A program made the translations under genes and the position numbers. A stretch of 64,000 nucleotides of DNA from NCBI GenBank assembly GCA_022969815.1, contig GCA_022969815.1_4535.1. One strand, given 5' to 3'. This document shows positions 45,293-61,882 of this stretch, in pieces (position 1 is the first letter of the stretch; every line of letters begins with the position of its first letter). This DNA comes from Escherichia coli. Lineage in GTDB: Bacteria; Pseudomonadota; Gammaproteobacteria; Enterobacterales; Enterobacteriaceae. The notes beneath the pieces are model-generated. The model saw only the letters and a program-made list of their open reading frames with translations. It did no database searches and was not told where the DNA came from.

Positions 45293-45490
45293 ATGAAAGA
45301 CCAAATGATTAATGGACCTCGTGTAACAGTCAGTCCTAAAACTTTTGCATCTCTTCTGGACGACACTGGTGAGGTTTATACTTACACAAGAGATTCACTG
45401 CCTCTGCCTGAAAGTGCACAGGGTTCACGTTCGCTTTTTTATAAAGGTGTTCTTTTTACGGAAGCAAAAGAAGACAAGGAGACTAAATGA
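45293..45490 (+). CDS. hypothetical protein
   Basis: AAGGAG RBS. Confidence 0.5.
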   Translation: MKDQMINGPRVTVSPKTFASLLDDTGEVYTYTRDSLPLPESAQGSRSLFYKGVLFTEAKEDKETK

Positions 45491-46479: not shown

Positions 46480-46487
46480 GGAGGGTT

Positions 46488-47366: not shown

Positions 47367-47923
47367 AAATAAAAGAATTAAGTATTCCTGGTCTGGTTGT
47401 CTTTAAACCTCAAGTTTACAAAGATGATCGTGGTTCCTTCACGGAGACGTTTAACGAGAAGATTTACGAAGAGGTTATTGGCAAACAAACGTTTGTTCAG
47501 GATAACCATTCATTCTCTACTTTAGGTGTTCTTCGCGGAATGCACTTTCAAGTAAATAACCCGCAAGGTAAGCTTGTACGTTGCACACGAGGTGAAGTTT
47601 TTGACGTGGCTGTAGATCTTCGTGAAGGTAGTCCAACCTTCGGACAATGGGAAGGTGTGATTCTTAGTGGGTGTAACAATAAACAGTTGTGGATTCCACC
47701 TGGCTTTGCACATGGTTTTGTTGTAACCTCTTATGAAGCCAACTTTGAATACAAGTGCACCAACTACTACGATCCGGCATCTGAACGTAGTTTGTTGTGG
47801 AACGATCCTACTGTGAATATTGATTGGGGTTTTGATATGATTTTCAATGATGAGAATTTTGTACCTATCATTTCGGAAAAGGATGCACAAGCTAAAACAC
47901 TGAAGGAGCTTATGGAATCATGA
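47363..47923 (+). CDS. rmlC: dTDP-4-dehydrorhamnose 3,5-epimerase
   Basis: 186 aa cupin-like with GMHFQ and IPPGFAHGF motifs. Confidence 0.75.
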
Positions 47924-49182: not shown

Positions 49183-49686
49183 ATGGCTAAAAAAGTAGTA
49201 GATGAGTTTGACATGTTGGCTGTTGATGAAGGACTGAAGCTGACTGTTTACCCAGACACCTTGGGATATTGGACAGTCGGCATTGGACACCTCTTAACTA
49301 AAAAGAAAGATAAGGCGGAAGCTATTCGTATTCTGGATGCTCTTGTTGGTCGCAAGACTAACGGAGTTATCACAGAGAAAGAAGCCCGTGCTATCTTTGC
49401 TGACGATGTTGAAAAGGCGAAAAAACAGATTAAAAACAGTTCCATTCTTGCCCCAATTTATGATAAGGTGAGTGAAACCCGTAAACTGGCAATCATCAAT
49501 ATGGTGTTCCAGTTGGGGTTAACCGGAACGGAAGGCTTTAAAAATAGCTTGACTTTAATCAGTAATTCGTACTATACTCAAGCTGGTAAAAACATGAGAG
49601 CCAGTAAATGGTACTCTCAAACGCCAAACCGTGCAGAACGAGTAATCAAGGTTCTAACATCTGGGACTCTTGATTCTTACAACTAA
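49183..49686 (+). CDS. endolysin, T4 lysozyme family (GH24)
   Basis: DEGLKLTVYPDTLGYWTVGIGHLL and later blocks closely parallel T4 gene e lysozyme along the full 167 aa. Confidence 0.9.
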   Translation: MAKKVVDEFDMLAVDEGLKLTVYPDTLGYWTVGIGHLLTKKKDKAEAIRILDALVGRKTNGVITEKEARAIFADDVEKAKKQIKNSSILAPIYDKVSETRKLAIINMVFQLGLTGTEGFKNSLTLISNSYYTQAGKNMRASKWYSQTPNRAERVIKVLTSGTLDSYN

Positions 49687-49687
49687 C

Positions 49688-49710
49688 AAAGGGGCGCAAG
49701 CCCCTTCTAT
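49688..49710 (+). terminator. putative rho-independent terminator
   Basis: GGGGCGCAAGCCCC hairpin with short T tract. Confidence 0.4.
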
Positions 49711-49723
49711 AAGGAGTGCTACT

Positions 49724-50479
49724 ATGGGAAAAACAGCTACCGCTAAATCACCGCGCCAGAAGTTAGCTTCTAATGCGAAAGTAGAAAGTCGTTATGCTGC
49801 AAAAGCAGTTGGAAATGATGACTATCGTTTAGATGGGTTTTCACCAGAAGGAGATCAGCAACAAATCGTTCAAAGTATGATCTGGAATGATCTTACAGTC
49901 GTAAATGCTCCAGCAGGGACAGGCAAGACTTCCGTGACTTTATGGAAAGCTTTGCAGATGCTTCGAGCAGGAGATTTCCGTAAGCTTCTTTTTATTAAAA
50001 ACCCGACTGAAGTTGGTGATGATCAGATTGGTTTCCTTTCAGGAGATAAAACTGATAAACTGGCGGCGCACTACGAATCAACCAAACGAATCTTCCAGCA
50101 GTTTATGACTGCAAACAAATTAGAGAATGATATTGGTTCCGGTAAGATTGAACTTAATATCCCGAACTACCTACTGGGTGCTACCCTGGACAACACTATC
50201 GTGATCATTGATGAAGCACAGCTTATGTCTCCAGAAACATTAAAACTTCTGGTAGAGCGTGCAGGGATCAACACTCATGTTGTTGTTCTTGGAGATGTTC
50301 GTCAAACCTACGCTATCAAAAAGCGTGCAAACGGTTTGAAAGATCTTCTTGACAAAGTTGCCCCTGAAGGTGAAGATGGTGTTCGTGTCCCTCTGGTAGA
50401 CTTTATCGGTTATGTGCAGTTAACCACAGATGACAACAAACGATCTCGTTTGTCTAAGTTCATCACGGAAATTTATTAA
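49724..50479 (+). CDS. phoH: PhoH-like ATPase
   Basis: Walker A NAPAGTGKT and Walker B-like IVIIDEAQ; AAGGAG RBS before ATG at 49724. Confidence 0.75.
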   Translation: MGKTATAKSPRQKLASNAKVESRYAAKAVGNDDYRLDGFSPEGDQQQIVQSMIWNDLTVVNAPAGTGKTSVTLWKALQMLRAGDFRKLLFIKNPTEVGDDQIGFLSGDKTDKLAAHYESTKRIFQQFMTANKLENDIGSGKIELNIPNYLLGATLDNTIVIIDEAQLMSPETLKLLVERAGINTHVVVLGDVRQTYAIKKRANGLKDLLDKVAPEGEDGVRVPLVDFIGYVQLTTDDNKRSRLSKFITEIY

Positions 50480-50517: not shown

Positions 50518-51015
50518 ATGGTACAGACAATTATAGATCGGACTGGTATTGATGAATGTTACCAAACTGGGCTTGTGAAGCCTAACGAGTTCCGACAGAT
50601 TTGCGTGAATCATATTGAGAAAGAAATTGCACTAACTTTGGAGAACCTTACCCTCCGAGACAAGCTGTCAATGTTTGTGGCTTGGTGTAAAGGTGAAGAT
50701 TGGTTATTGGCCCATTTTCAAGAACTTTCTGATAGTCAAGAAGGCTTATATGAATGTATAATAGGAATAGCTGGCTCCAATCCTGAACTTCTCCATTTGG
50801 AAGAAGAAGAGGCGAAGTTACTGTTCTTAAGCAACATGTTCAATCGTAAAGCATTGCTTGTTCGTGAGTGTAGTGATCTTTTAAATCATCCACTGGCGAT
50901 CACAAACGAAATACTGGTTGACAAAGAGACATTACGTGCGATAGACTATCTGCGCAAGTATGTCAACGGCGGGAAAGCAGTTCTTAAAACATTAACAGAG
51001 GAGGAAGCAGAATGA
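50518..51015 (+). CDS. hypothetical protein
   Basis: GGAGGG RBS. Confidence 0.5.
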   Translation: MVQTIIDRTGIDECYQTGLVKPNEFRQICVNHIEKEIALTLENLTLRDKLSMFVAWCKGEDWLLAHFQELSDSQEGLYECIIGIAGSNPELLHLEEEEAKLLFLSNMFNRKALLVRECSDLLNHPLAITNEILVDKETLRAIDYLRKYVNGGKAVLKTLTEEEAE

Positions 51016-51698
51016 CTACAATTATCGCAACCAAAAACAAGATCCTTAGCGACGGTAAAGTAACTTTCGGTGGTCGTGTAGATTCGACCAATTTCAAGAA
51101 AGTACGTAAAATTGGGGATTATCTCGTAGGTGGTGCAGGGCGTTTAACTTCGGTTTTAGCTTTCTTCCAGTGGTTCGAACAGAACCTGCAATGTGAAGCG
51201 GCGCGTGAGGCAGTGCCTGGATTGATGATCAGTTCTAACCCTGATCGTGAAGATGAAGAGTTTATTGCTCTCGTTGTTCACCCAGACGGACGTATTTTCC
51301 TACATGAAGGTAATGATCCTACCCGTGCATACCCAATCGACGAAGAATATTACGCAGTAGGTAGTGGTTCCGATTTCGCGCTCGCAGCCCTGGACGGCGG
51401 TGCTTCGCCAGAAGCTGCTATGGAAGTTGCCAAGAAGCGTGACGCATACTCTGGTGGCGAAACCTTCGTTGAAGAATTAGACGAGATCATCGAACTGACT
51501 GATGAAGATCTCGAAAACTTCACCAAACAAGAACTGATCAACCTGCTTAAGTTTGGTAATCCTGCTGGTGAAGAAACTCCTCGTGACGTGGCAGGTGACG
51601 AGACGGTAGAAGAAGTTGTAGTAGAAAAAGACTTGACTTCAAAACCGGAAAATATTAATCTCGTAAATGTAGCGGATTTCGAGAATCCCGCTTCTTAA
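51012..51698 (+). CDS. HslV/proteasome beta-like Ntn-hydrolase with acidic C-terminal extension, putative
   Basis: Thr at position 2 (MTTIIATKN...), GGAGR and YYAVGSGSDFALAALDGG blocks parallel HslV; about 60-aa acidic tail. Confidence 0.45.
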   Translation: MTTIIATKNKILSDGKVTFGGRVDSTNFKKVRKIGDYLVGGAGRLTSVLAFFQWFEQNLQCEAAREAVPGLMISSNPDREDEEFIALVVHPDGRIFLHEGNDPTRAYPIDEEYYAVGSGSDFALAALDGGASPEAAMEVAKKRDAYSGGETFVEELDEIIELTDEDLENFTKQELINLLKFGNPAGEETPRDVAGDETVEEVVVEKDLTSKPENINLVNVADFENPAS

Positions 51699-51704
51699 TA
51701 AAAC

Positions 51705-51730
51705 TGCCCCTTCGGGGGCATTTCTTACGC
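51705..51730 (+). terminator. putative rho-independent terminator
   Basis: GCCCCTTCGGGGGC hairpin followed by T-containing tract. Confidence 0.4.
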
Positions 51731-51743
51731 AGAGGAGATTATT

Positions 51744-52181
51744 ATGTTGAACGTTCCTGTTAAATTCGTCGATAGCTGTGTTAATGCTTACCAACAAACT
51801 TGTAAACGTGCCTCAAACTGTTTGCAGTCTTTGATTCAAACGCGGTACGTGATCCAAAAGAAAAGAAAGTGGTTTGGTAAGGATTCTTATAGTGTTAATG
51901 CGTTCGGGGAGTATCAACTCCAGTATGACGATAACATGCAACACATCTTAGAGTTTTTACTGATAAAAGATAAAATCTCCCCTGCGGATTACCAGTTACT
52001 TAAATTCTACGATCAGAGTTTGTCTATTGAGGAAGTTATTCAAGATATCCTTTCTCGTAAGACAGATAAGAACACTGTTGGTATTACAAACTTAGAGATG
52101 CAATTGCTCAATGAGATCTTTTTGTTTGTGGAAGATGAGTCTGTAACTAAGGAGGAGCTTTTAAATGGCTTTAAGCTATGA
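51744..52181 (+). CDS. hypothetical protein
   Basis: AGAGGAG RBS. Confidence 0.5.
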   Translation: MLNVPVKFVDSCVNAYQQTCKRASNCLQSLIQTRYVIQKKRKWFGKDSYSVNAFGEYQLQYDDNMQHILEFLLIKDKISPADYQLLKFYDQSLSIEEVIQDILSRKTDKNTVGITNLEMQLLNEIFLFVEDESVTKEELLNGFKL

Positions 52182-52674
52182 TCGTCCAGAGTCCGATTAC
52201 TATCCGACTCCGCAAAAAGCGATTAACTCGTTATTTAGCATTATTGATTTTAAAAATTTGAAAGAGGAAGGATTTACATTTGCAGAACCGTGTAAAGGAC
52301 AAGCAGCGGCTATTTACCGTCACTTTCCTGAAGGTTCTCAGTATTGTGAGCTTGAAGAAGGTAAAGATTATTTTAGTCACGTATGGGAAAATCGTCCCGA
52401 CATTATAATCACGAACCCTCCATTCAAGCTGGCATTAGAGTTCTTGGAAAAGAGCTTGAAAGAAGCAGACGTGTCAGTCTACCTGCTTCGCCTGGGATTC
52501 CTTGAGTCAAAGAAACGTCGAGCGTTTCATCAAGAAAACCCACCTACGAATTTGATTGTACTCTCCGAACGTCCTTCGTTCGTAGCAGGTGGAACAGATA
52601 AGACAGCGTATGCTTGGTACGTATACGATCCAAAACAAATTTTGGGTCTAACTCAACCATTTTATTTCGTTTAA
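52165..52674 (+). CDS. DNA N6-adenine methyltransferase (small phage Dam-like), putative
   Basis: DYYPTP near N-terminus and catalytic IIITNPPF (NPPF/Y motif IV). Confidence 0.55.
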   Translation: MALSYDRPESDYYPTPQKAINSLFSIIDFKNLKEEGFTFAEPCKGQAAAIYRHFPEGSQYCELEEGKDYFSHVWENRPDIIITNPPFKLALEFLEKSLKEADVSVYLLRLGFLESKKRRAFHQENPPTNLIVLSERPSFVAGGTDKTAYAWYVYDPKQILGLTQPFYFV

Positions 52675-52684
52675 GGAGCACACT

Positions 52685-52921
52685 ATGGCTAAATTTACTA
52701 TGACCGTTTCTATTGATTTTGATGATGAGGACGGAGGCATTAACTTAGGTATTGCTCAGAGCCTGGAAGGTGATTTGAACCCGACACAAGCAGCTATGGC
52801 GGTATTCTTTAAAGATGCCATAACAGTTACAGCAACACATTCTGCAAATCAAACTGTAGATTACGGTAGCATGGTTCAAGCCTTGGTTGATGCTCAAAAC
52901 GGTGAAGATTGGGATGATTAA
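52685..52921 (+). CDS. hypothetical protein
   Basis: AAGGAG RBS. Confidence 0.5.
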   Translation: MAKFTMTVSIDFDDEDGGINLGIAQSLEGDLNPTQAAMAVFFKDAITVTATHSANQTVDYGSMVQALVDAQNGEDWDD

Positions 52922-53124
52922 TGGCTTATAATTATTATTGCGTTTACGCAAATGAAGCAAAGAAAGGCGACACTGGCACTAACGTCTATGCAGAATCAGA
53001 AACACATGCAAAAGAAATTGGTGCGATCCTTCTGTCACGTTGGACAGGTGGTAACTATTCTGCTGTGGATTTGTTCGCAGAAATGGATGATACCATCCAA
53101 GAAGATACTATCACCACAACCTGA
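52921..53124 (+). CDS. hypothetical protein
   Basis: 67-aa ORF with overlapping stop/start. Confidence 0.4.
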   Translation: MAYNYYCVYANEAKKGDTGTNVYAESETHAKEIGAILLSRWTGGNYSAVDLFAEMDDTIQEDTITTT

Positions 53125-53188
53125 TATTGCTTGAAGTAGTTGGTACTCTCCTTGTTTCGGCAAGGAGGGTATTTTTAAGGAGGAAGTT

Positions 53189-53380
53189 ATGCAAGAGAAT
53201 GAAGAGGTAGTTGTTAAAAAGTTCCCGACACGTACACAGGCAGTCAACTTTGCTTCTGATTTGCTTGTAGATGTGGAAGGAGTTCTCATTAGACATGAAG
53301 GGGATTCCTGGAATGTCTCTTATAACGTAAACAGATCAATTATCTATTTAGGAGAAGAGAACTTCTCTCGTATAGATTGA
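53189..53380 (+). CDS. hypothetical protein
   Basis: AAGGAGG RBS. Confidence 0.5.
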   Translation: MQENEEVVVKKFPTRTQAVNFASDLLVDVEGVLIRHEGDSWNVSYNVNRSIIYLGEENFSRID

Positions 53381-53394
53381 TCGAAGGAGTAGTT

Positions 53395-53967
53395 ATGCGT
53401 TCTACTTACACAGGTAAGATTAATTCTGGTATCATTTTAGCAGCAGCAGGAATCATCAGCAAAACTTTCAAAGTGGCAAACCTACCAGAGTGTGTAGATT
53501 TTGACCACGTATTCAATCCGTTAAATCCTTCTCGTTGTGTTGTTCGTAGCAATGTTGAGAATCCAAACGAGAACTTGTTTTATGTAACAGCACCTTCACA
53601 AAGTATTCTGAACCAAGTGGAGGCTAAAATTATTACCGAAGGTAGTTATTTCTCATTACTACCTTGTAAATCGGTGGAGATTGAAGATAGTATCACCTTC
53701 GCAAATAACTTGGTCTTGACCATGTTCATGGTTTCTGATAAAGACTGTGGAGACGATATGGTTTTAGCTGTAAGGAATGTTTACGACACATTGGGTATTG
53801 CTTATAGCTGTAAGTTGTGCGATGATTATAAATCTTGTTCAGACTTTTACATAAATGGTGTTCGGGTATGCCGTGTTGAATCCTACTGGGTGCAAGACAC
53901 ATACGTAACAGTAGCGAACGTGATCAATGAACCTATGTTCAGCCACGCTTTAGCGTTAATCATTTGA
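53395..53967 (+). CDS. hypothetical Cys-rich protein
   Basis: GAAGGAG RBS before ATG at 53395. Confidence 0.45.
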   Translation: MRSTYTGKINSGIILAAAGIISKTFKVANLPECVDFDHVFNPLNPSRCVVRSNVENPNENLFYVTAPSQSILNQVEAKIITEGSYFSLLPCKSVEIEDSITFANNLVLTMFMVSDKDCGDDMVLAVRNVYDTLGIAYSCKLCDDYKSCSDFYINGVRVCRVESYWVQDTYVTVANVINEPMFSHALALII

Positions 53968-53977
53968 GGAGGAAGGA

Positions 53978-54307
53978 ATGGAAATTACTACAGAACAGGC
54001 TCTTATCGACGAAGGGCGTAAAATCTTAGAGAAGCATTTGGGAGATATACATCAAACCCCTGGCTACTTAGGGTGGCGCATGGTTGAAGCTGTAGATTTC
54101 CTTCCTCGTACAAAACAAGACGTTGAAATGCGTTCTCTGTTCTTGCTTGTCAAAGTAGACGGGGATACGCCTTTCAAACTCGCAGCTTCACACATTGAGA
54201 AGGTGGAGGAGAAAGCTTATTCAGAGTTTGCTGAACTCGTATTACAGGAGGATCTCGAAGGGAAGGTAAACATTTTTATTTTTCTGGATTTTGAGGAGGA
54301 GATATGA
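53978..54307 (+). CDS. hypothetical protein
   Basis: GAGGAGG RBS. Confidence 0.5.
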   Translation: MEITTEQALIDEGRKILEKHLGDIHQTPGYLGWRMVEAVDFLPRTKQDVEMRSLFLLVKVDGDTPFKLAASHIEKVEEKAYSEFAELVLQEDLEGKVNIFIFLDFEEEI

Positions 54308-55041
54308 TTTTATATAAAGAGATTACCGTGGAGCAGGATCAAGACCTCTTCATTATCGGGGACTTGCATGGTTGCTACGATCTTTACTTGAAAGGTAAGA
54401 ATTATCTTGGTATCCGAGATACAGATGTGGTTGTGTCTCTCGGAGATTTGACAGATCGTGGTAAACAAAACTTCAAATGTGTTGTGGAATTTACACGCAA
54501 AGAGAATCGTTATGCGCTTTGTGGTAATCACGAAGATATGATGATTAAAGGCTTACTGGAAGGGGATCGTCGTTACTACGAATGTTGGTATCAGAACGGT
54601 GGTCATACGGTATTGGAAGAATGTGATGAAGAAGGATCTACTCTGCTCGCTACGATGGTTGAGGACAACCCTGTGATTTTGGTTGTGAACTATCGAGGTA
54701 TGAAGTTAGGGTTTATTCATGGTGGATATCCTTCCTCTTTTGAATATCTCCCCCTGACAGACATACCACACCTACGTATGAGCAAAGCAAAAGAAGCTAC
54801 TTTCGCTGAAGCTTTGATGTGGGATCGTGATATGGTGGAGTGTGCCAAAGAAGGCATGAAACTTCCGGTTGTTATGGGTGTTGATTATGTGTTTCACGGG
54901 CACTCTTATGTGAAAGAACCTTTGATCAATGCTAATCGTGTTTATATGGACACTGGGTCTGTTTTCAATAACAACTTAACGTTTGCCTATTTTGATGCAG
55001 ACGGTGGACTTCAGTTTTATTCAACTTTACAGGAGGATTAA
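54304..55041 (+). CDS. Ser/Thr protein phosphatase (lambda PPase-like metallophosphatase)
   Basis: GDLHGCYD, GDLTDRG, GNHE motifs in canonical order. Confidence 0.8.
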   Translation: MILYKEITVEQDQDLFIIGDLHGCYDLYLKGKNYLGIRDTDVVVSLGDLTDRGKQNFKCVVEFTRKENRYALCGNHEDMMIKGLLEGDRRYYECWYQNGGHTVLEECDEEGSTLLATMVEDNPVILVVNYRGMKLGFIHGGYPSSFEYLPLTDIPHLRMSKAKEATFAEALMWDRDMVECAKEGMKLPVVMGVDYVFHGHSYVKEPLINANRVYMDTGSVFNNNLTFAYFDADGGLQFYSTLQED

Positions 55042-55334
55042 TGTATAAAATTACAATCGTAGAATCTGTGGGCGAGATTCGTAAAGAAATTATTCTGGAG
55101 ACGGAAGATCTGGAACTGGTACGTGAAATCATAATTGGGAAGGATGTAGATAAGGTTGAGTCGGACGCTCCGAATCTGATGATCGATGATCAATATGCAG
55201 AATTTCGTCGTATTTTTGAGGAGGAAAGGAAGAAGTGGGGCAAAGAACCACACGTTTTTCGTCCTTATAATCCATATCCTTCTGGTGATCCGTGGATCAT
55301 GACTAACAGAAACCCGTTTGAAATAACCTGTTGA
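55041..55334 (+). CDS. hypothetical protein
   Basis: AGGAGG RBS. Confidence 0.5.
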   Translation: MYKITIVESVGEIRKEIILETEDLELVREIIIGKDVDKVESDAPNLMIDDQYAEFRRIFEEERKKWGKEPHVFRPYNPYPSGDPWIMTNRNPFEITC

Positions 55335-55342
55335 GGTGGCCT

Positions 55343-55921
55343 ATGAGCAACCTATTTTACACAGGTGTGGGAAGTCGAGAGATAACCCACGAAGAATGGG
55401 ATTTAATGGTCGCTGTAGCAAAGTGGTTGGCTAACTGTGGTTTTACTTTACGTTCAGGTAATGCAAACGGTAGTGACTCTGCTTTCGAAACTGGTGTAGA
55501 AGAATCTAAAAACAAAACTCTCAAGGAGATTTATATCCCTTGGGAGAAGTTTGAAGGCAATGATATCCCAGGTGAGAAGATAGTGCTTGCTAATCCTGAC
55601 AGTATGAACTATGCTATCAGTCTCCAGTGGATAAAGGAAATCCATCCAGCATTTGATAAACTTAAACAAGGTGCACGTAAATTGCATCAACGCAACGTTC
55701 ATCAGGTGTTGGGACAAGATCTGGAGCATCCCGTGCCTTCCTTATTCTTATTGGCATGTTCCAAAGAGGATAAGAAGGGAGATGTTATGGGCGGAACAAG
55801 GACGGCGTGGCTCATCGCTAAAGCTAATAACGTTCCATGTTTTAACTTACGTGGTAAAACAAAGGAAGAACTTTATGCTTTTCTTAAACCGTTGGTCAAG
55901 GGGGCAATCAGTGGCAATTAA
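55343..55921 (+). CDS. DprA/SLOG-family Rossmann-fold protein, putative
   Basis: YTGVGSRE and LRSGNANGSDSAFETG resemble DprA/Smf blocks; ATG at 55343. Confidence 0.35.
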   Translation: MSNLFYTGVGSREITHEEWDLMVAVAKWLANCGFTLRSGNANGSDSAFETGVEESKNKTLKEIYIPWEKFEGNDIPGEKIVLANPDSMNYAISLQWIKEIHPAFDKLKQGARKLHQRNVHQVLGQDLEHPVPSLFLLACSKEDKKGDVMGGTRTAWLIAKANNVPCFNLRGKTKEELYAFLKPLVKGAISGN

Positions 55922-56435
55922 GTTAAATCGTGCAAACGTAGGTAATCGTTTTAACCTTAGCCGTATAAACGAGGATACAGATGTTACAGCAGATATTGAA
56001 AAAATCATGCAGGGTATTGTCCATCACGGTTTGCGTTTTGCCAGGGATTTGGTAATCTTCCGTTATGACGGAGAAGATGATCGTTCAAAGAATGATGGGA
56101 TTATCTTCGTAGATAAAGATTTAACCCAAGCAGATATTGAACAGATCAACCGTTATTTTATTGGTGTAGGGGATCTTCAAGACACGCAGCTTGCACGTAT
56201 GGCAGAAATTCTGGCGAATAAATTGTTGCAAGATATCGGAAAAGTTCTTGACAAAAATCCAAAACATGTTATAGTGACTATCCACAAAATGAGTTTTATT
56301 AAGTATCTTAACAAACCTGGTAAACTGGGTTATGGATGGATACGCACAAGTGGACCACAAACCACTCTCGAAACCGAGATGTGCTATACAATTGAAGAAG
56401 TAAAACGTGAGGAGGAAGAAAATGGCGGAATTTAA
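55911..56435 (+). CDS. hypothetical protein
   Basis: GTG start at 55911 with AAGGGGG RBS; upstream part of ORF 55653..56435 lies inside the preceding gene. Confidence 0.35.
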   Translation: MAIKLNRANVGNRFNLSRINEDTDVTADIEKIMQGIVHHGLRFARDLVIFRYDGEDDRSKNDGIIFVDKDLTQADIEQINRYFIGVGDLQDTQLARMAEILANKLLQDIGKVLDKNPKHVIVTIHKMSFIKYLNKPGKLGYGWIRTSGPQTTLETEMCYTIEEVKREEEENGGI

Positions 56436-56712
56436 TGAAGTGAAAAGTTACGAAAGCAACTTCGTAAGCAATTGGGAAGCATGGGATGAGATGGGTGTTG
56501 GTGAACTCTATTTCTACAATGTAACCCTTCGTCCAGAATATCAACATCTCATTCCAGAAGGCACTGTGCAGATCGGTATGTTCATGTCTTCTCAAGACGG
56601 TGTTGTGCAGTTTGAGTTTTACTCTGACACAGAACTGAACGAATTCACTTATCGTGCATTCAATATCGTATTAGCTTTAGGAGAGGAGAAATTTTATGAC
56701 GACGAAGTATAA
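56422..56712 (+). CDS. hypothetical protein
   Basis: GAGGAGGAAG RBS before ATG at 56422. Confidence 0.45.
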   Translation: MAEFNEVKSYESNFVSNWEAWDEMGVGELYFYNVTLRPEYQHLIPEGTVQIGMFMSSQDGVVQFEFYSDTELNEFTYRAFNIVLALGEEKFYDDEV

Positions 56713-56893
56713 AACAGTAGCAGAAGCACTGAAAGCAGCACACGAAGCCATTGCAGAAGCTGAACAATTGGCTGATGAAACTGGCACAAGTTTTCACTTC
56801 TCAGTTGAATATGGGATGGGTGGTACTTATGACCCAGAAGATGAGAACGAATACACTGGGACCAACTGGCACCCATCTTCCCTCGGTTGTTAA
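56696..56893 (+). CDS. small protein, paralog family member 1 (C-terminal W-x-SS-x-C)
   Basis: GGAGAGGAG RBS; C-terminus GTNWHPSSLGC. Confidence 0.5.
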   Translation: MTTKYKTVAEALKAAHEAIAEAEQLADETGTSFHFSVEYGMGGTYDPEDENEYTGTNWHPSSLGC

Positions 56894-56907
56894 TAAGGAG
56901 AAATAAA

Positions 56908-57126
56908 ATGAGTGATCGTAATGCACAAGCATTAGCAGACAAAGCAAAAGAAATCATGAAGCTTGTGGATGCACTGGCAGCAGAAGCTGAACAGTTTGGT
57001 TTCGGAGTAAGCTTAGAAAATGATGCAATTTCTTTTGAAGATTGGCAGTCTTCCGCTTGCTATGGCGAAGGTGATGATGGTTTCACCGTGGATTCGGATG
57101 GTGTTTGGTACAGCAGTAATTGTTAA
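56908..57126 (+). CDS. small protein, paralog family member 2
   Basis: AAGGAG RBS; C-terminus DGVWYSSNC. Confidence 0.5.
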   Translation: MSDRNAQALADKAKEIMKLVDALAAEAEQFGFGVSLENDAISFEDWQSSACYGEGDDGFTVDSDGVWYSSNC

Positions 57127-57135
57127 GGAGGGATC

Positions 57136-57405
57136 ATGTCAGAAGGTATCGCCTTAATCAAGGCAAAAGTTAAAGAGATGGAAGCATCACAACAGAAGTT
57201 CCGCAACGAGATTGAAGAACTTTGTGAGCAGTTCCAAGAACAAGCGTGGATCGGTGATTACGGGAATGGGGAAACTTATTACCCAACAGGAACAAACGCA
57301 GAAGAACATTACCTCACCTATATCTGCGGAGACTATGATGTTGAGATTGACGAAAACGGTCTGATGACCCAAGGTCTTTGGGTGTCTTCCTCGGAAATGT
57401 GCTAA
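57136..57405 (+). CDS. small protein, paralog family member 3
   Basis: AAGGAGGG RBS; C-terminus QGLWVSSSEMC. Confidence 0.5.
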   Translation: MSEGIALIKAKVKEMEASQQKFRNEIEELCEQFQEQAWIGDYGNGETYYPTGTNAEEHYLTYICGDYDVEIDENGLMTQGLWVSSSEMC

Positions 57406-57413
57406 TAAATAAT

Positions 57414-57436
57414 AACCCGCTTCGGCGGGTTTTTTA
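57414..57436 (+). terminator. rho-independent terminator
   Basis: CCCGCTTCGGCGGG hairpin followed by TTTTTT. Confidence 0.55.
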
Positions 57437-57447
57437 TTGTGTGAGTG

Positions 57448-57476
57448 TTGACAAGACACGAAGAACCTGGTAGACT
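57448..57476 (+). promoter_or_regulatory. sigma70-like promoter
   Basis: TTGACA - 17 nt - TAGACT. Confidence 0.5.
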
Positions 57477-57504
57477 TGTCTCATCAACTAAGAGAGGAGG
57501 ATAT

Positions 57505-58449
57505 ATGAAAGTATTAATCGGTAGTCGTGCGTTGGAAATGATTTGTCGTTCTCGTGGTGTAGAACTGTATCGTGCTTGCGTAGATCTGGATTACCTCTGC
57601 ACTGAAGAAGAGTGGCAAGCAGAAGCCCAGAAATTCTCGAAAGATCGTTTCGTGGAAATTGTTGAACGTAAAGGTAACAAAGGGCATATCAAAATGATCG
57701 CGGGTGCTCATCTGGAATACGATATTGCTCAACCAGGGGATTCTACAGAAGCATTGATCGAATACATTAAAGAGAATGCAGATCATCTGCCACATATTGG
57801 TTACGATGTGGTTGCACCTTTGGATGTTTTGTATCTCCTGAAAATGAGTCACCGTTTTAAGAAGGACAGTCCTCACTTCCTGAAAACAATGAAGGATATC
57901 CACTTCATGCGTAACCTTGGAGCGAAGATCCCTGAAGAGTTGGAAGATACATACAAACTGCGTCAGAAGGAGTCCTATAATTACGGGCACCCTAATCTGA
58001 ACGTGAAAAGTAAAGATTTCTTCAAGGGTGATGAAGTGCCTTATGTGTATGATCACGATACCATCCATGAAGCTGTTGCCGTGTTGGGTGATCCCGCTTA
58101 TAAATCATACATGAAAGACGATAGCGAAGTGATGACCAGTAAAGAGAAGTTCTTTGCACAACCTAAACATATCCGTTTGCTGGGTGTTTACGAAGAAGCT
58201 TGTGTCCTGGCATTAGAGCGTTCACAGATCCCGTTTGGGGAAGATGTAGATGGTCCAACTCCTAAACAAAGTTTTATGATGGCTTTATCCAAAGTTTGTA
58301 CCTCGATCACCAGTGGATGGTTTCGTGAATATGCCTGGGAAAACTTCCAAGTTGTGGTAAAACTGTATGAGCAAATGGGCCAAGATGATTACGTGGCACG
58401 TTTTAAAGCAAATCTTCACATGGTGAAACCTTACGAAGGAGGTTATTGA
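57505..58449 (+). CDS. hypothetical protein
   Basis: GAGAGGAGG RBS before ATG at 57505; 314 aa. Confidence 0.5.
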   Translation: MKVLIGSRALEMICRSRGVELYRACVDLDYLCTEEEWQAEAQKFSKDRFVEIVERKGNKGHIKMIAGAHLEYDIAQPGDSTEALIEYIKENADHLPHIGYDVVAPLDVLYLLKMSHRFKKDSPHFLKTMKDIHFMRNLGAKIPEELEDTYKLRQKESYNYGHPNLNVKSKDFFKGDEVPYVYDHDTIHEAVAVLGDPAYKSYMKDDSEVMTSKEKFFAQPKHIRLLGVYEEACVLALERSQIPFGEDVDGPTPKQSFMMALSKVCTSITSGWFREYAWENFQVVVKLYEQMGQDDYVARFKANLHMVKPYEGGY

Positions 58450-58450
58450 T

Positions 58451-58849
58451 ATGGGTTGGTGTGATCAGTCACAAAGTTACTTCAAAGTAACACATGTGGA
58501 TCTCAATAAAGCAAGAGTGAAGTTGTTGAGTATTGAAAAAGAAACAGCAGCTATTGACAAACGCCTCCGAGAGAGTAAAGTGGTAATCACTTCTTGGTTC
58601 GGACTGAAACGTAAAATCCTTACGCAGCGAGAGCATGTAATTAAAAATATGCATGGTTGGGCTTGGTTCCACGACATGGCAAAACACTTGGGGTACATTT
58701 CTACTGAAGAACACGACCTCTTGGAGCTACGTTATCGCCTTCCAGATGTAGAAGATTTAGACTTGTGGATCAGTTCCGAACAAATCTTCTTAACCGAGAG
58801 CGATTGGAAGAAAGTCAATATTTGTCTTAAATGGAGGGAGAATGAGTAA
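58451..58849 (+). CDS. hypothetical protein
   Basis: GAAGGAGG RBS. Confidence 0.5.
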   Translation: MGWCDQSQSYFKVTHVDLNKARVKLLSIEKETAAIDKRLRESKVVITSWFGLKRKILTQREHVIKNMHGWAWFHDMAKHLGYISTEEHDLLELRYRLPDVEDLDLWISSEQIFLTESDWKKVNICLKWRENE

Positions 58850-59525
58850 AGTAGTTTTATCAACATTTGATGGATCTGGAATCATGGTACTTCGTTACGC
58901 AGAAGCAGGGCATAAATGCTACTGTGTAAATGCTGACGAAGGTGATCACGGGGCTTATGAAGTTCGCATGGAACATCCTAACATCACTTACGTGAACGCA
59001 TGGATTGATTCCAACTTCAACCCTGAAGATTACGGTATTCCTAAGCCAGATATTATCTTTGGCTTCCCTCCGTGTACCATGCTTGCTGGTTGCGGTAGTA
59101 AGCACGAACGTAGCGCAGAAGAATTGGAAGAAGCTTTGGCTAACATTCGTATCGTGGAAGCTTTAGGAAATAAATACAACGTTCCGTGGATGATTGAGAA
59201 TCCAGTGGGTAAACTGTCAACATTGTGGCGTAAACCGGATTTCTATTTCGATCCTTACGAATATGGCGGATATCTGTTTGATGAAGAAGGCAGCTTCCAC
59301 CCTAAAATGCCTACCCGCGACGGTTACACAAAGAAAACCTGTATTTGGCATGGCAATGGTTTTGTTAAGCCTGTGAAGAAGCCTGTGGAACATATTGGTT
59401 GCTTCTGGGGCTGGAAAAGTTTAGGCGGAGCAAGTGCGAAAACAAAACAACTCCGATCGTTAACTGCTCGCGGTTTTGCTCGTGCTGTGTTTTTATCTAA
59501 CAACCTTTTAGATAAGGAGGAATGA
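58842..59525 (+). CDS. DNA cytosine-5 methyltransferase-like protein (minimal), putative
   Basis: LSTFDGSG (motif I-like FxGxG), GFPPCTML (motif IV PC), ENPVG (motif VI ENV-like); only 227 aa. Confidence 0.4.
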   Translation: MSKVVLSTFDGSGIMVLRYAEAGHKCYCVNADEGDHGAYEVRMEHPNITYVNAWIDSNFNPEDYGIPKPDIIFGFPPCTMLAGCGSKHERSAEELEEALANIRIVEALGNKYNVPWMIENPVGKLSTLWRKPDFYFDPYEYGGYLFDEEGSFHPKMPTRDGYTKKTCIWHGNGFVKPVKKPVEHIGCFWGWKSLGGASAKTKQLRSLTARGFARAVFLSNNLLDKEE

Positions 59526-60190
59526 TGACCCATTTAAAACCTTTTGGTGGAAAACCTATTGTGGCGTATCAAGTAGATCGTGATGATTGGGAAGGCAGTG
59601 TAGTTGTCTTTGGTAATCATTTCTTTGCTGTGCGTCGTAAAGGCGCAAGTATGTTGGATTGTGAGGAGGAGTATTGTCATGTCTCCCGCGCCAAAGAATT
59701 CGACCAGTATGCAGAAAAAGGTTTTGTGCCTGTCAAAGCTTTACTGGAGGCAGGATGGTGGATACACTCTGCTCATGATGGTGTTAGACTTGACGAGTCT
59801 GTAGATAATCTTGAGGCAGATTTTGACGAATGGGAAGATGGCATGTATGTTGAGGAGGATCTTGTATTTTCCCTTGACGAGAAAAGTGTGTGGAAGAACT
59901 GGGAAGAAATGGAACGTCACGCGCATTTTATCAACAACGCTTTGATTCGTAAAGCCTGGTTCACGGAGGCGGTGAAGATAGCGTATCCGCAATTCACCTT
60001 TACAGAGGTTTGGGGCGGTCCCCACCACATCACCCATACAGCATTTTTCGACTTCCCTGGTTCACGTTACAAAGGTAATGTAATGTGGGACTGGGATGAG
60101 AATGAAGTACCATCTGTTCAAGACTTTCGTTGTTATGTTTGCCAAGGCGATCAAGAAGCCCTTGACAAATACCTGCAAAGTCTGGTATAG
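59522..60190 (+). CDS. hypothetical protein
   Basis: AAGGAGGA RBS. Confidence 0.5.
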   Translation: MMTHLKPFGGKPIVAYQVDRDDWEGSVVVFGNHFFAVRRKGASMLDCEEEYCHVSRAKEFDQYAEKGFVPVKALLEAGWWIHSAHDGVRLDESVDNLEADFDEWEDGMYVEEDLVFSLDEKSVWKNWEEMERHAHFINNALIRKAWFTEAVKIAYPQFTFTEVWGGPHHITHTAFFDFPGSRYKGNVMWDWDENEVPSVQDFRCYVCQGDQEALDKYLQSLV

Positions 60191-60204
60191 TGCAAGCAAC
60201 TGAA

Positions 60205-60236
60205 CAAAGCCTCCTTTTCAGGGGGCTTTTCTTTTA
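60205..60236 (+). terminator. rho-independent terminator
   Basis: AGCCTCC...GGGGGCT hairpin followed by TTTTCTTTT. Confidence 0.45.
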
Positions 60237-60247
60237 TGGGAGGAAAT

Positions 60248-60742
60248 ATGTTTCAAGTAGAAATTCATGTGCACGACAGTTGTTCAAATTGCGAAACTTG
60301 TGGTTACAATAGTTCAACCATGATCACTATTAGCGGAGACTTAGGACATGCTAAGTTTGGCGAAGTCGCAAGCTGCTTCGGCGGAGAGGATGCAGATTGG
60401 CATGATATTGCTTTGTGGCTATGCGGAAGACTGAATGTAAATTGTAAAGACTTCCCTGAACTGTTGAGCCGAAATCTTGTCGATAGTCGGGAACAAGCCT
60501 ACAATATTTATGCCGCTTCTGTTTATGTTGATCATAAATGGGTAGAAGATGAAGAAGCTGAACGTTTGCTACGCCTCTACTATGAAGCAGAGGAAGCTTA
60601 TGATAACTATTACAGCATGTCCAACATCCTGCGTTTGTTTGCAGAGTTTGATATTTACTTTGAAGTGAGTTATTCTGAAGATGAAGTGTATGATTTTGAT
60701 GACGATGATTACGAGGAGGATGAAGAATGCCAAGACGATTAA
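60248..60742 (+). CDS. hypothetical acidic protein
   Basis: GGGAGGA RBS before ATG at 60248; very acidic C-terminus. Confidence 0.45.
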   Translation: MFQVEIHVHDSCSNCETCGYNSSTMITISGDLGHAKFGEVASCFGGEDADWHDIALWLCGRLNVNCKDFPELLSRNLVDSREQAYNIYAASVYVDHKWVEDEEAERLLRLYYEAEEAYDNYYSMSNILRLFAEFDIYFEVSYSEDEVYDFDDDDYEEDEECQDD

Positions 60743-61530
60743 TAGTGATCAGCGGCGCTGGTCTAAGCGCCGATAGCGGTGTACAAACATTCCGTACAGA
60801 AACAGAGAGTGGAAAAGCCTTATGGGACGAGTACGATTTAGAGGAGGTTTGTAATATTGGGGCATTCCAGGCAGGTTATCGTAGACGTACATGTCCCGAT
60901 TTACCTGTTATCGGAGGTGAGGATGAGGAAGGATACAACCTCTACAACAAGACCCATGATTTCTATAACAAGCGTCGTATAGAGTTGGATAATATAGATC
61001 CAAACGCTGCACATCGTCTGATTGCTCGTTTATACTCAGAGTATGGCGCTGATCGTATTTTAAACATCACCACTAACGTGGACGATCTTTTGGAACGTGC
61101 TGGTGTTGTTCACGAAGATGTTCTGCATGTGCATGGCTACCTACCAGAAATTGTAGTGGATCGGAAGTTTATTAAAGAAATCGGTTATGCAAGTGTGGAT
61201 GTGGATAAGTACGATTACGTGAAACCTAACGTTGTCTTCTTCGGGGAATCTGCTCCGCTGTACACAGAGATGTACCATATGCTCGATAATCTCACATCTC
61301 AGGATATGGTGATTGTTGTAGGTTGCTCTAATCAAGTGATCAACTTCAACTGGGAGTTGTTCCCAGCCCTCAATACAGGAACAAAGATGGTCGTAGTTAA
61401 TCCTGGGGTTAATTACGAAGAAACACTTCTCTATGAAGATCGTGGAGTTTTTGTTTACCGAGAAAAAGCTGCAACAGCCTTCAGTAATGAAGGTTTCATT
61501 AAAATGATCGAAGACCACTTAAACAAATAA
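60727..61530 (+). CDS. Sir2-family (sirtuin-like) NAD-binding protein lacking the zinc ribbon
   Basis: VISGAGLSADSGVQTFR, ITTNVDDLLERAG, HVHG, KPNVVFFGES, VVGCS parallel sirtuin catalytic blocks; no CxxC...CxxC Zn module. Confidence 0.55.
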   Translation: MPRRLIVISGAGLSADSGVQTFRTETESGKALWDEYDLEEVCNIGAFQAGYRRRTCPDLPVIGGEDEEGYNLYNKTHDFYNKRRIELDNIDPNAAHRLIARLYSEYGADRILNITTNVDDLLERAGVVHEDVLHVHGYLPEIVVDRKFIKEIGYASVDVDKYDYVKPNVVFFGESAPLYTEMYHMLDNLTSQDMVIVVGCSNQVINFNWELFPALNTGTKMVVVNPGVNYEETLLYEDRGVFVYREKAATAFSNEGFIKMIEDHLNK

Positions 61531-61536
61531 ACCAAC

Positions 61537-61562
61537 CAAGGGGCTACGGCCCCTTTCTTATT
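61537..61562 (+). terminator. rho-independent terminator
   Basis: AGGGGCTACGGCCCCT hairpin followed by TTCTTATT. Confidence 0.5.
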
Positions 61563-61846: not shown

Positions 61847-61882
61847 AAGAAAGGCACCCAAGTGGGTGCCTTTTCTATTTTA
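61845..61882. terminator. bidirectional rho-independent terminator
   Basis: AGGCACCCAAGTGGGTGCCT hairpin flanked by A-rich and T-rich runs between convergent genes. Confidence 0.55.

What the first reader, a model, noticed from the sequence alone, without database searches (positions are those of the whole stretch)
52165..59525. Two DNA methyltransferase-like genes of different classes in the early region
ORF 52165..52674 has the DYYPTP and NPPF signature of small phage N6-adenine methyltransferases. ORF 58842..59525 has FDGSG, PC and ENV-like blocks in the order of C5-cytosine methyltransferases but is only 227 aa, so it could be a truncated or divergent enzyme. Together with ThyX and the rml block, this suggests the phage DNA may be modified in more than one way.
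Basis: partly seen in the sequence, partly recalled or inferred. Interest (0 to 1): 0.45.

Follow-up and report, generated by a model that had tools for sequence, protein, structure and literature searches.

The report
Two compact phage DNA methyltransferases
Both genes are real, full-length, unusually small phage DNA methyltransferases, one adenine (Dam-like) and one cytosine (Dcm-like), from widespread families whose close relatives have already been shown to methylate DNA, so the finding is correct but ordinary.

Summary
The window is a Phapecoctavirus-type E. coli myovirus, 98.8% identical to phiWec190. Both ORFs and all quoted motifs are present at the stated coordinates.

ORF-A (52165-52674, 169 aa):
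- It is 45% identical to the Bas51 (WalterGehring) N6-adenine methyltransferase. Nanopore sequencing of wild-type and T83P mutant Bas51 showed that enzyme puts 6mA on GATC in phage DNA.
- The three loss-of-function positions from that study (D69, D79, T83) are conserved in ORF-A.

ORF-B (58842-59525, 227 aa):
- It is not truncated. All 808 relatives found are about 215-245 aa.
- It is 50% identical to the Bas06/K42 "Dcm", for which LC-MS showed 5mC formation. The residues matching C82, E128 and K175/K176 are conserved.

Both characterised relatives are known retron triggers. GATC and CCWGG are not depleted in the window, although many other palindromes are.

ThyX and a full rmlBACD block exist, but nothing links them to DNA modification, and related phages are highly restriction-sensitive. 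Identical proteins are already annotated as DNA methyltransferases. Sequence specificity for these two proteins is inferred, not shown.

The parts
52165..52674 (+). ORF-A: 169-aa compact gamma-type N6-adenine DNA methyltransferase (Dam-like, orphan, no separate target-recognition domain)
52195..52212 (+). ORF-A motif X-like DYYPTP (aa 11-16), placed before motif I as in gamma-class enzymes
   Evidence: T15 invariant; D11, Y13 and P16 at least 90% conserved in alignment A2
52285..52299 (+). ORF-A motif I EPCKG (aa 41-45), predicted AdoMet-binding loop
   Evidence: E41, P42 and C43 invariant; G45 at least 90% conserved
52366..52371 (+). ORF-A D68-Y69 (motif III-like); D68 corresponds to Bas51 D69, where D69G abolishes function
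   Evidence: Invariant in A2; residue mapping; mutant data
52411..52425 (+). ORF-A catalytic motif IV TNPPF (aa 83-87); T83 corresponds to Bas51 T83, where T83P removes GATC 6mA
   Evidence: T83, N84, P85 and P86 invariant; mapping; nanopore data
58842..59525 (+). ORF-B: 227-aa compact Dcm-like C5-cytosine DNA methyltransferase with a vestigial target-recognition region
58866..58880 (+). ORF-B motif I FDGSG (aa 9-13), AdoMet binding
   Evidence: D10, G11, S12 and G13 invariant; F9 at least 90% conserved in A1; aligns to FSGAG of M.HaeIII
59064..59078 (+). ORF-B motif IV FPPCT (aa 75-79) with the catalytic cysteine C78, equivalent to K42 Dcm C82
   Evidence: F75, P76, C78 and T79 invariant; mapping; C82 is part of the inactive quadruple mutant
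59196..59210 (+). ORF-B motif VI ENPVG (aa 119-123); E119 is equivalent to K42 Dcm E128
   Evidence: All five residues invariant; mapping
59325..59339 (+). ORF-B YTKKT (aa 162-166), replacing canonical motif VIII QxRxR; K164/K165 are equivalent to K42 Dcm K175/K176
   Evidence: Y162, K164 and T166 invariant; mapping; residues mutated in the dead enzyme
59442..59489 (+). ORF-B motif IX-like TKQLRSLTARGFARAV (aa 201-216) close to the C-terminus
   Evidence: T201, K202, L204, R205, S206, L207, T208, G211 and A215 invariant
57414..57476 (+). Terminator-like hairpin (57414-57431) followed by a sigma70-like promoter (57448-57476), upstream of the four-gene unit that contains ORF-B
   Evidence: Pattern scan; terminator-like sites are enriched (23 against 13.3 +/- 3.8) but promoter-like sites are not, so the promoter is only a candidate
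60206..60229 (+). Terminator-like hairpin closing the ORF-B unit (genes 57505-60190)
51705..51720 (.). Bidirectional terminator-like hairpin upstream of the unit containing the 145-aa gene and ORF-A

Best explanation
The phage encodes two stand-alone (orphan) AdoMet-dependent DNA methyltransferases that modify its own replicating DNA. ORF-A is a minimal gamma-type N6-adenine enzyme consisting of a Rossmann core only. It uses the TNPPF motif to methylate adenine and most likely targets GATC, as its Vequintavirus orthologue does. ORF-B is a minimal C5-cytosine enzyme. It uses C78 (FPPCT) as the nucleophile and E119 (ENPVG) to activate the flipped cytosine, and most likely acts at or near Dcm-type CCWGG sites. 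Together they would reproduce the host's Dam and Dcm marks on phage DNA faster than the host enzymes can. That should protect against methylation-sensitive restriction at those sites. It also exposes the phage to retrons that sense such methylation. Shown here: the genes, motifs, folds and homology. Shown elsewhere for homologues: 6mA at GATC, 5mC formation and retron triggering. Inferred: activity, specificity and biological role of these two particular proteins.
Against: There is no direct data for this phage. Identity to the characterised enzymes is only 45-50%, and specificity can change at that distance. The short region between motifs VIII and IX differs between ORF-B and the Bas06 protein. 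CCWGG specificity of the K42 enzyme was assumed from host Dcm and supported only by msDNA site mutants in a dcm+ host, where msDNA 5mC was low without the phage enzyme; a different site or cytosine is therefore possible. Neither protein passes any Pfam or NCBIfam threshold. ORF-B has Asn where motif II normally has Glu, and lacks canonical motif VIII. ORF-A's fold matches rRNA m6A enzymes (METTL5, Erm, KsgA) about as well as it matches DNA enzymes. Related phages are highly sensitive to the RM systems tested, so any protection is narrow. Non-depletion of GATC and CCWGG would also be expected from host Dam/Dcm protection alone.
Confidence: 0.8

Rival explanations
1. Both are active DNA methyltransferases, but at least one has a different sequence specificity from its characterised relative. 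For example, ORF-B with its very short recognition region might methylate a shorter or degenerate motif, or the outer cytosine of CCWGG. ORF-A might target a site other than GATC.
For: Identity is only 45-50%. The segment between motifs VIII and IX, where C5 enzymes read sequence, is about 30 aa and diverges from the Bas06 protein. K42 specificity was assumed rather than mapped, and host Dcm in MG1655 did not give high msDNA 5mC. The closest solved fold is DNMT3B, which reads only CpG.
Against: The ORF-B family is unusually conserved, with at least 59% identity among the 35 aligned relatives and many invariant residues in the putative recognition segment. The ORF-A core and the loop residues around RPSF/TD are conserved with Bas51. 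GATC and CCWGG are not avoided in the window.
Confidence: 0.3
2. ORF-A is not a DNA enzyme. Instead it methylates RNA (for example rRNA or tRNA adenine), a protein glutamine or another amino group, as other small NPPF/NPPY enzymes do.
Against: The 45%-identical Bas51 orthologue demonstrably controls 6mA at GATC in phage DNA. Most sub-threshold Pfam hits are to DNA N6-adenine families: EcoRI_methylase in 28 of 39 members, plus N6_Mtase, Dam and Eco57I. The YxTP motif placed before motif I is the gamma DNA-MTase arrangement.
Confidence: 0.06
3. ORF-B is a truncated or inactivated remnant of a larger C5-cytosine methyltransferase.
For: It is about 100 aa shorter than classical bacterial C5 enzymes. 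There is no PF00145 hit. Motif II has Asn instead of Glu, and motif VIII is non-canonical.
Against: All 808 homologues are 215-245 aa and 1,453 phage records carry near-full-length copies. There is strong purifying selection, with 45 invariant columns. The model is a complete, confident catalytic-domain fold. A 236-aa orthologue is catalytically active in vivo.
Confidence: 0.03
4. The two methyltransferases form part of a larger hypermodification pathway with ThyX and the rml genes, for example sugar-decorated or otherwise non-canonical bases.
For: ThyX and a complete rmlBACD block lie 4-13 kb upstream on the same strand. Olsen et al. speculated that rhamnose might glycosylate hydroxymethylated bases in such phages.
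Against: No hydroxymethylase or DNA glycosyltransferase was seen next to either gene. The methyltransferase families occur in more than 1,400 and more than 500 phage records, most of which lack rml genes, such as Drexlerviridae. phi92-like phages that carry the putative dTDP-sugar machinery are highly RM-sensitive. ThyX alone makes ordinary dTMP.
Confidence: 0.04

Closest known systems
Bas51 (Escherichia phage WalterGehring, Vequintavirus) N6-adenine methyltransferase, bas51_0176 (PLoS Biol 2025, PMC12548924)
   Same: Same family and architecture as ORF-A: 177 aa against 169 aa, 45% identity, E=2e-42. The DxYxTP, EPC, DY and TNPP(F/Y) motifs are shared, as is the position downstream of PhoH and a ClpP/HslV-like protease. 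The D69, D79 and T83 positions are conserved.
   Different: It comes from a different phage subfamily. It has NPPY where ORF-A has NPPF. GATC specificity, retron Asa1/Squ1 triggering and toxicity have been shown only for Bas51, not for ORF-A.
Phage K42 / KarlJaspers (Bas06, Drexlerviridae) Dcm-like C5-cytosine methyltransferase (bioRxiv 10.1101/2023.08.16.553469; Wang et al. 2024, Cell Rep 43:114857)
   Same: Same family as ORF-B: 236 aa against 227 aa, 50% identity, E=3e-70, and the same motifs. The residues equivalent to C82, E128, K175 and K176 are conserved.
   Different: It comes from a siphovirus rather than a large myovirus. The roughly 30-aa segment between motifs VIII and IX differs. 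5mC formation and retron Ec86 triggering have been shown only for the K42 enzyme.
E. coli Dam and phage T4 Dam (alpha-class GATC N6-adenine methyltransferases)
   Same: Probably the same product as ORF-A, 6mA at GATC, made by an orphan enzyme.
   Different: A different class. Dam enzymes are about 260-280 aa, carry a DPPY motif and a dedicated DNA-binding domain, and have a different motif order (from general knowledge). ORF-A gives no significant hit to them, and the Pfam Dam (PF05869) hits are sub-threshold in 6 of 39 members.
M.TaqI / MmeI / HsdM-type gamma-class N6-adenine DNA methyltransferases
   Different: Those enzymes carry large target-recognition domains or subunits, whereas ORF-A is the catalytic core alone. 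Sequence identity is only 15-18%.
Canonical C5-cytosine methyltransferases (Pfam PF00145: M.HhaI, M.HaeIII, E. coli Dcm/M.EcoRII) and DNMT3A/B
   Different: ORF-B has no PF00145 hit. It has Asn in place of the motif II Glu, FPxCT in place of GxPCQ, ENPVG in place of ENV, and YTKKT in place of QxRxR. Its recognition region is about 30 aa, compared with 80 or more. It is about 100-250 aa shorter.

Membership tests
Compact phage Dam-like N6-adenine DNA methyltransferases (PHROG 799; prototype Bas51 bas51_0176) | Full-length homology to the characterised prototype | tested here: met
   45% identity, E=2e-42, covering aa 11-169; phrog_799 E=3e-54
Compact phage Dam-like N6-adenine DNA methyltransferases (PHROG 799; prototype Bas51 bas51_0176) | Conservation of the residues whose mutation abolishes function (Bas51 D69, D79, T83) | tested here: met
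   ORF-A has D68, D79 and T83. D68 and T83 are invariant and D79 is at least 90% conserved in A2.
Compact phage Dam-like N6-adenine DNA methyltransferases (PHROG 799; prototype Bas51 bas51_0176) | 6mA deposited at GATC on phage DNA | not testable with these tools
   Shown only for Bas51 by nanopore sequencing. GATC is not depleted in the window (O/E 0.95), which is consistent but not diagnostic.
Gamma-class N6-adenine (amino) DNA methyltransferases | Class I AdoMet-MTase fold with the (D/N)PP(Y/F) motif IV | tested here: met
Gamma-class N6-adenine (amino) DNA methyltransferases | Motif order X (YxTP), then I, then IV | tested here: met
   DYYPTP at aa 11-16, EPCKG at aa 41-45, TNPPF at aa 83-87
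Gamma-class N6-adenine (amino) DNA methyltransferases | A separate target-recognition domain | tested here: not met
   The 169-aa protein is the Rossmann core only. The family norm is 160-220 aa. Some members carry only a four-Cys insertion.
Gamma-class N6-adenine (amino) DNA methyltransferases | Passing a curated Pfam/NCBIfam model (N6_Mtase, Eco57I, EcoRI_methylase, Dam) | tested here: not met
   Only sub-threshold hits limited to the motif IV region
Compact phage Dcm-like C5-cytosine DNA methyltransferases (PHROG 757; prototype K42/Bas06 Dcm) | Full-length homology to the characterised prototype | tested here: met
   50% identity, E=3e-70, 227 aa against 236 aa; phrog_757 E=1.1e-82
Compact phage Dcm-like C5-cytosine DNA methyltransferases (PHROG 757; prototype K42/Bas06 Dcm) | Catalytic and substrate-binding residues C82, E128, K175 and K176 | tested here: met
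   C78, E119, K164 and K165 are present in ORF-B. C78, E119 and K164 are invariant and K165 is at least 90% conserved.
Compact phage Dcm-like C5-cytosine DNA methyltransferases (PHROG 757; prototype K42/Bas06 Dcm) | 5mC formation in DNA; CCWGG specificity | not testable with these tools
   5mC was shown by LC-MS for K42 Dcm. CCWGG was assumed and only indirectly supported. CCWGG is not depleted in the window.
Canonical C5-cytosine DNA methyltransferases (Pfam PF00145) | C5-MTase catalytic-domain fold | tested here: met
Canonical C5-cytosine DNA methyltransferases (Pfam PF00145) | Motifs I (FxGxG), IV (PC) and VI (ENV) in order | tested here: met
   FDGSG, FPPCT and ENPVG are present in that order. 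Two deviations: the Pro immediately before the Cys varies across the family, and a Pro is inserted within ENV.
Canonical C5-cytosine DNA methyltransferases (Pfam PF00145) | Motif II Glu, motif VIII QxRxR and a target-recognition domain of at least about 80 aa | tested here: not met
   There is an invariant N30 at the motif II position, YTKKT at the motif VIII position, and only about 30 aa between motifs VIII and IX.
Canonical C5-cytosine DNA methyltransferases (Pfam PF00145) | Score above the PF00145 gathering threshold | tested here: not met
   No Pfam hit for ORF-B. Only 1 of the 120 listed homologues carries a precomputed PF00145 hit. The PDB profile search gives M.HaeIII at E=0.78.

The most novel reading that the evidence does not exclude
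The near-absence of a recognition domain may mean these enzymes do not simply copy host Dam/Dcm specificity. ORF-B in particular may methylate a shorter or different cytosine context than the inner C of CCWGG; this would explain why host Dcm did not pre-methylate the retron msDNA in the K42 study. If so, the pair would give this myovirus broader methylation than assumed. It would also make the phage a predicted target of methylation-sensing retrons (Eco1/Ec86, Asa1, Squ1).
Probability: 0.2. Interest if true: 0.4.

Novelty: already known. Interest (0 to 1): 0.12.

Why it matters
The practical value is annotation. In the nearest relatives (phiWec188/190) both genes are labelled 'hypothetical protein'. 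They can now be named with experimental support from orthologues: a Dam-like 6mA enzyme and a Dcm-like 5mC enzyme. This predicts that virion DNA carries 6mA and 5mC, which affects nanopore base-calling, restriction mapping and cloning. It also predicts sensitivity to retrons that sense these methyltransferases. The result shows that general libraries (Pfam, NCBIfam) miss two very abundant phage methyltransferase families: about 13,400 50%-identity clusters for ORF-A's family, and at least 1,490 phage genomes for ORF-B's. It adds no new biology beyond the published work on Bas51 and K42.

Tried and rejected
- Pfam and NCBIfam scans of both proteins gave nothing above threshold. Per-member Pfam scans of the ORF-A family gave only sub-threshold hits around motif IV.
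- Sequence and profile searches of PDB were uninformative (E of 0.01 or worse). Only fold comparison worked.
- I looked for informative domain fusions among distant ORF-A relatives. The only long protein (P0340, 560 aa) is a tandem duplication of the same module, and the C-terminal extensions of the others have no Pfam match.
- I tested whether the 145-aa gene that overlaps ORF-A's start is an obligate partner. It is absent from Vequintavirus and Certrevirus loci, where the protease gene directly precedes the methyltransferase, so I rejected this.
- I tested whether the Bas51 'glycosidase' co-trigger has a counterpart at window 55331-55921. It does not (E=0.98). Other window ORFs were not compared.
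- Promoter scanning to test 'early region': sigma70-like sites are not above shuffled expectation, so expression timing is left open.
- The afdb50 fold library was unavailable. The BFVD search only returned other unannotated or putative phage methyltransferases.
- The peer-reviewed retron Ec86 paper (Cell Rep 2024) is not held, so I used the preprint together with later papers that cite it.
- The Proxi-RIMS-seq2 paper gave no specificity data for this family.
- I considered comparing site avoidance between Certreviruses with and without the cytosine methylase. I did not run it, because phages of one genus are too similar for the comparison to be informative.


Full report
**What the window is.**
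The 8.2-kb stretch around the finding is 98.8% identical to Escherichia phages phiWec190 and phiWec188, and 97% identical to phiWec179/181/186 and to a record named Pseudomonas phage PsgM04F. It is about 75% identical to classical Phapecoctavirus genomes such as nepoznato and anhysbys. phiWec190 is classified as Stephanstirmvirinae; Phapecoctavirus, has a 150.7-kb genome and came from sewage. Both genes lie in a long plus-strand block running from about 26 kb to 62 kb, judged from GC skew. The block contains small genes and nucleotide-metabolism genes.

**Checking the observation.**
- Both ORFs are present at the coordinates given.
- ORF-A (52165-52674, 169 aa) contains DYYPTP (aa 11-16) and NPPF (aa 84-87).
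- ORF-B (58842-59525, 227 aa) contains FDGSG (aa 9-13), PC within FPPCT (aa 75-79) and ENPVG (aa 119-123), in that order.
- The matches are not chance. ORF-A matches phrog_799 at E=3e-54 and ORF-B matches phrog_757 at E=1.1e-82, both labelled "DNA methyltransferase".
- In alignments of 39 and 35 diverse homologues, the quoted motifs fall on invariant or nearly invariant columns.
- Neither protein reaches the threshold of any Pfam or NCBIfam model. Sequence searches of PDB are also uninformative. A standard HMM search would therefore have wrongly appeared to refute the finding.

**ORF-A: anatomy.**
- A database search found 210 homologues, nearly all 160-200 aa.
- An exhaustive profile search of 1.84 billion cluster representatives found 13,414 at E≤0.001. 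Almost all of the best 150 listed are stand-alone proteins of about 160-260 aa. The small size is therefore the family norm.
- The conserved elements, in order, are D-x-Y-P-T-P, E-P-C-x-G, D-Y, T-N-P-P-F, R-P-x-F and T-D. This is the gamma-class order, with motif X before motif I before motif IV.
- Some members carry a four-cysteine insertion between RPSF and TD.
- The AlphaFold model is confident (pLDDT 90.5).
- Fold alone does not separate DNA from RNA adenine methylation. However, more residues align with the DNA enzymes (up to 159 of 169 for MmeI).
- Per-member Pfam scans give only sub-threshold hits, mostly to DNA N6-adenine families: EcoRI_methylase in 28 of 39 members, plus N6_Mtase, Dam and Eco57I.

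**ORF-A: experimental anchor.**
- The homologue in the BASEL Vequintavirus WalterGehring (Bas51) is gene bas51_0176, annotated "putative N6 adenine methyltransferase". It sits in the same place, downstream of PhoH and a ClpP-like protease. The arrangement is similar in Certrevirus phiTE.
- A 2025 PLoS Biology paper (PMC12548924) studied the Bas51 N6 adenine methyltransferase, with these results:
  - All retron Asa1 and Squ1 escape phages carried mutations in the gene.
  - Engineered D69G, D79G and T83P phages escaped both retrons.
  - Native nanopore sequencing of Bas51 DNA gave a GATC logo for 6mA.
  - The enzyme was toxic when expressed alone.
- ORF-A is 45% identical to bas51_0176 over aa 11-169 (E=2e-42).
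- The three loss-of-function positions map to ORF-A D68, D79 and T83, all conserved. T83 is the threonine of TNPPF.
- ORF-A therefore belongs to an experimentally validated family of compact Dam-like DNA adenine methyltransferases.
- If the phage stocks were grown on a dam+ host, as I assume (the passages read do not state the propagation strain's genotype), the T83P result implies host Dam alone leaves phage DNA largely unmethylated. That would give a rationale for the phage to carry its own enzyme. This is my inference.

**ORF-B: anatomy.**
- 808 homologues were found. All those listed are 210-267 aa and at least 60% identical.
- tblastn finds the family in 1,490 phage records: Drexlerviridae, Dhillonvirus, Vequintavirus, T4-like phages and others. 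1,453 of these cover at least 80% of the query.
- ORF-B is therefore not truncated.
- Invariant residues define:
  - motif I (D10 G11 S12 G13);
  - an Asn (N30) where canonical enzymes have the motif II Glu;
  - F75-P76-x-C78-T79 (motif IV);
  - E119-N120-P121-V122-G123 (motif VI with an inserted Pro);
  - Y162-x-K164-x-T166 in place of QxRxR;
  - a motif IX-like T-K-x-L-R-S-L-T-x-x-G near the C-terminus.
- Only about 30 residues separate motifs VIII and IX, so the usual target-recognition domain is vestigial.
- The model is confident (pLDDT 87.2).

**ORF-B: experimental anchor.**
- The retron Ec86 study is available as a preprint (bioRxiv 10.1101/2023.08.16.553469). It was published as Wang et al. 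2024, Cell Rep 43:114857, according to the reference lists seen.
- All escape mutants of phage K42 disrupted a 711-bp dcm gene. K42 shares 95.4% genome identity with KarlJaspers (Bas06).
- Expression of this Dcm raised 5mC in msDNA, measured by LC-MS. A C82A/E128A/K175A/K176A mutant did not.
- Bas06 carries a 711-bp "Dcm-like C5 cytosine methyltransferase" gene.
- ORF-B is 50% identical to it over its full length (E=3e-70). C78, E119, K164 and K165 align with C82, E128, K175 and K176.
- ORF-B is therefore a member of a characterised family of compact 5mC DNA methyltransferases.
- One caveat is that the CCWGG specificity was taken from host Dcm. It was supported only by mutating the CCTGG site of the msDNA, in a dcm+ host in which msDNA 5mC was low without the phage enzyme. 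The exact motif, and which cytosine is methylated, are not rigorously established.

**Indirect evidence from the window itself.**

| Site | Observed | Expected (Markov) | O/E |
|---|---|---|---|
| GGCC | 29 | 83.1 | 0.35 |
| CCGG | 34 | 79.4 | 0.43 |
| GTAC | 181 | 263.6 | 0.69 |
| GGWCC | 19 | 41.0 | 0.46 |
| CTGCAG | 0 | 15.8 | 0 |
| CAGCTG | 0 | 10.8 | 0 |
| GGTACC | 0 | 7.0 | 0 |
| CCSGG | 0 | 10.1 | 0 |
| GATC | 339 | 356.9 | 0.95 |
| CCWGG | 106 | 113.3 | 0.94 |

- Short palindromes are strongly avoided, but GATC and CCWGG are not.
- Against a base-composition expectation, GATC and CCWGG are even enriched, at 1.43 and 1.48 times.
- This fits protection of those two sites by methylation. 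It cannot distinguish host enzymes from phage enzymes.

**Context and the rest of the interpretation.**
- A ThyX-type thymidylate synthase (Pfam Thy1) lies at 39145-40140.
- A complete rmlB, rmlA, rmlC, rmlD block lies at 45487-48762. The PsgM04F annotation agrees.
- Nothing links these genes to the methyltransferases. Both methyltransferase families are abundant in phages that lack rml genes.
- The BASEL study reports that Vequintavirinae and their relatives are "exceptionally susceptible" to RM systems, despite a putative dTDP-sugar machinery in the phi92-like phages.
- That sensitivity to the tested RM systems, which included EcoRI and EcoRV, also argues that the ORF-A family is not a non-specific adenine methylase.
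- Terminator-like hairpins are enriched (23 against 13.3 ± 3.8 in shuffles). They bracket two units, 51720-57414 containing ORF-A and 57431-60229 containing ORF-B.
- A good sigma70-like site lies at 57448-57476. Promoter-like sites are not enriched overall, so "early" expression remains untested.

**What is already known.**
- Proteins identical to both ORFs are annotated "DNA methyltransferase" in PsgM04F.
- In nepoznato the orthologues are annotated "putative DNA methyltransferase" and "Dcm".
- The paper on Certrevirus CB7 already described the same pair: an N6-adenine methylase plus a small cytosine methylase. It also reported a ClaI digest consistent with Dam-type methylation.
- In phiWec188 and phiWec190, however, both genes are still labelled hypothetical.

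**Verdict.**
- The main interpretation, two DNA methyltransferases of different classes, is supported by fold and by homology to characterised enzymes.
- The "truncated" alternative is refuted.
- The link to ThyX and the rml genes is unsupported.
- The remaining uncertainty is the exact sequence specificity of these two proteins and their biological benefit.
- This is an ordinary, already-described feature of this phage group, so I score interest low.

Noticed in passing
window 45487-48762 (+): A complete dTDP-L-rhamnose pathway sits in a lytic phage: rmlB 45487-46479, rmlA 46437-47366, rmlC 47363-47923, rmlD 47920-48762, all with strong Pfam hits. I saw no adjacent glycosyltransferase. Its target (DNA, virion or host surface) is unknown. 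The literature notes it for phi92-like phages, with no RM protection.
   Followed up: partly
whole window: Many short palindromes are strongly avoided: GGCC O/E 0.35, CCGG 0.43, GGWCC 0.46, GTAC 0.69, and zero copies of CTGCAG, CAGCTG, GGTACC, GAGCTC and CCSGG in 64 kb. GATC, CCWGG, GCGC, AGCT and TGCA are not avoided. This looks like classical restriction-site avoidance.
   Followed up: partly
window 57505-58449 (+): The first gene of the ORF-B unit encodes a DUF7277 + DUF7275 protein (Pfam E=2e-9 and 2e-76; phrog_2141) of unknown function. It is followed by a 132-aa gene (58451-58849) and, after ORF-B, a 222-aa gene (59522-60190). All have overlapping stop and start codons. These neighbours are not found next to the Drexlerviridae Dcm.
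   Followed up: no
window 60727-61530 (+): A phage-encoded Sir2-family protein (Pfam SIR2 E=7e-21; phrog_2162) lies just downstream of the ORF-B unit. Sir2 domains are usually discussed as bacterial defence effectors, so its role in a phage is unclear.
   Followed up: no
window 53377-53967 (+): Relatives annotated by pharokka call this gene 'histidyl tRNA synthetase' (phrog_4806), but the 196-aa protein has no Pfam support for that. The label is probably a mis-transfer.
   Followed up: no
window 55331-55921 and 51012-51698 (+): There is a DprA-like protein (phrog_768 E=8e-63; only a weak, below-cut-off Pfam DNA_processg_A hit) and an HslV/proteasome-like peptidase, plus PhoH at 49670-50479. 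The order PhoH, protease, methyltransferase is conserved as far as Vequintavirus and Certrevirus.
   Followed up: partly
Public records OR584014.1, MG065656.1, MG065688.1: 'Pseudomonas phage PsgM04F' is 97-100% identical to E. coli Phapecoctavirus-type phages. Several 'Campylobacter phage' records carry coliphage-like copies of these genes. The host attributions look doubtful, possibly from contaminating coliphages.
   Followed up: no
Paper 10.1101/2023.08.16.553469: In dcm+ E. coli MG1655, retron Ec86 msDNA had low 5mC unless the phage Dcm was expressed. This is odd if the phage enzyme merely copies host Dcm (the inner C of CCWGG). The specificity or substrate access of the phage enzyme may differ from host Dcm.
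   Followed up: partly
Protein P0340: A 560-aa metagenomic protein contains two tandem copies of the ORF-A-type methyltransferase module, behind a hydrophobic, signal-like N-terminus and a low-complexity linker.
   Followed up: no
window 51705-51720, 57414-57431, 61538-61555, 61849-61874: Perfect GC-rich hairpins score as terminators on both strands. They sit in intergenic gaps and appear to partition the long plus-strand gene block into units.
   Followed up: partly
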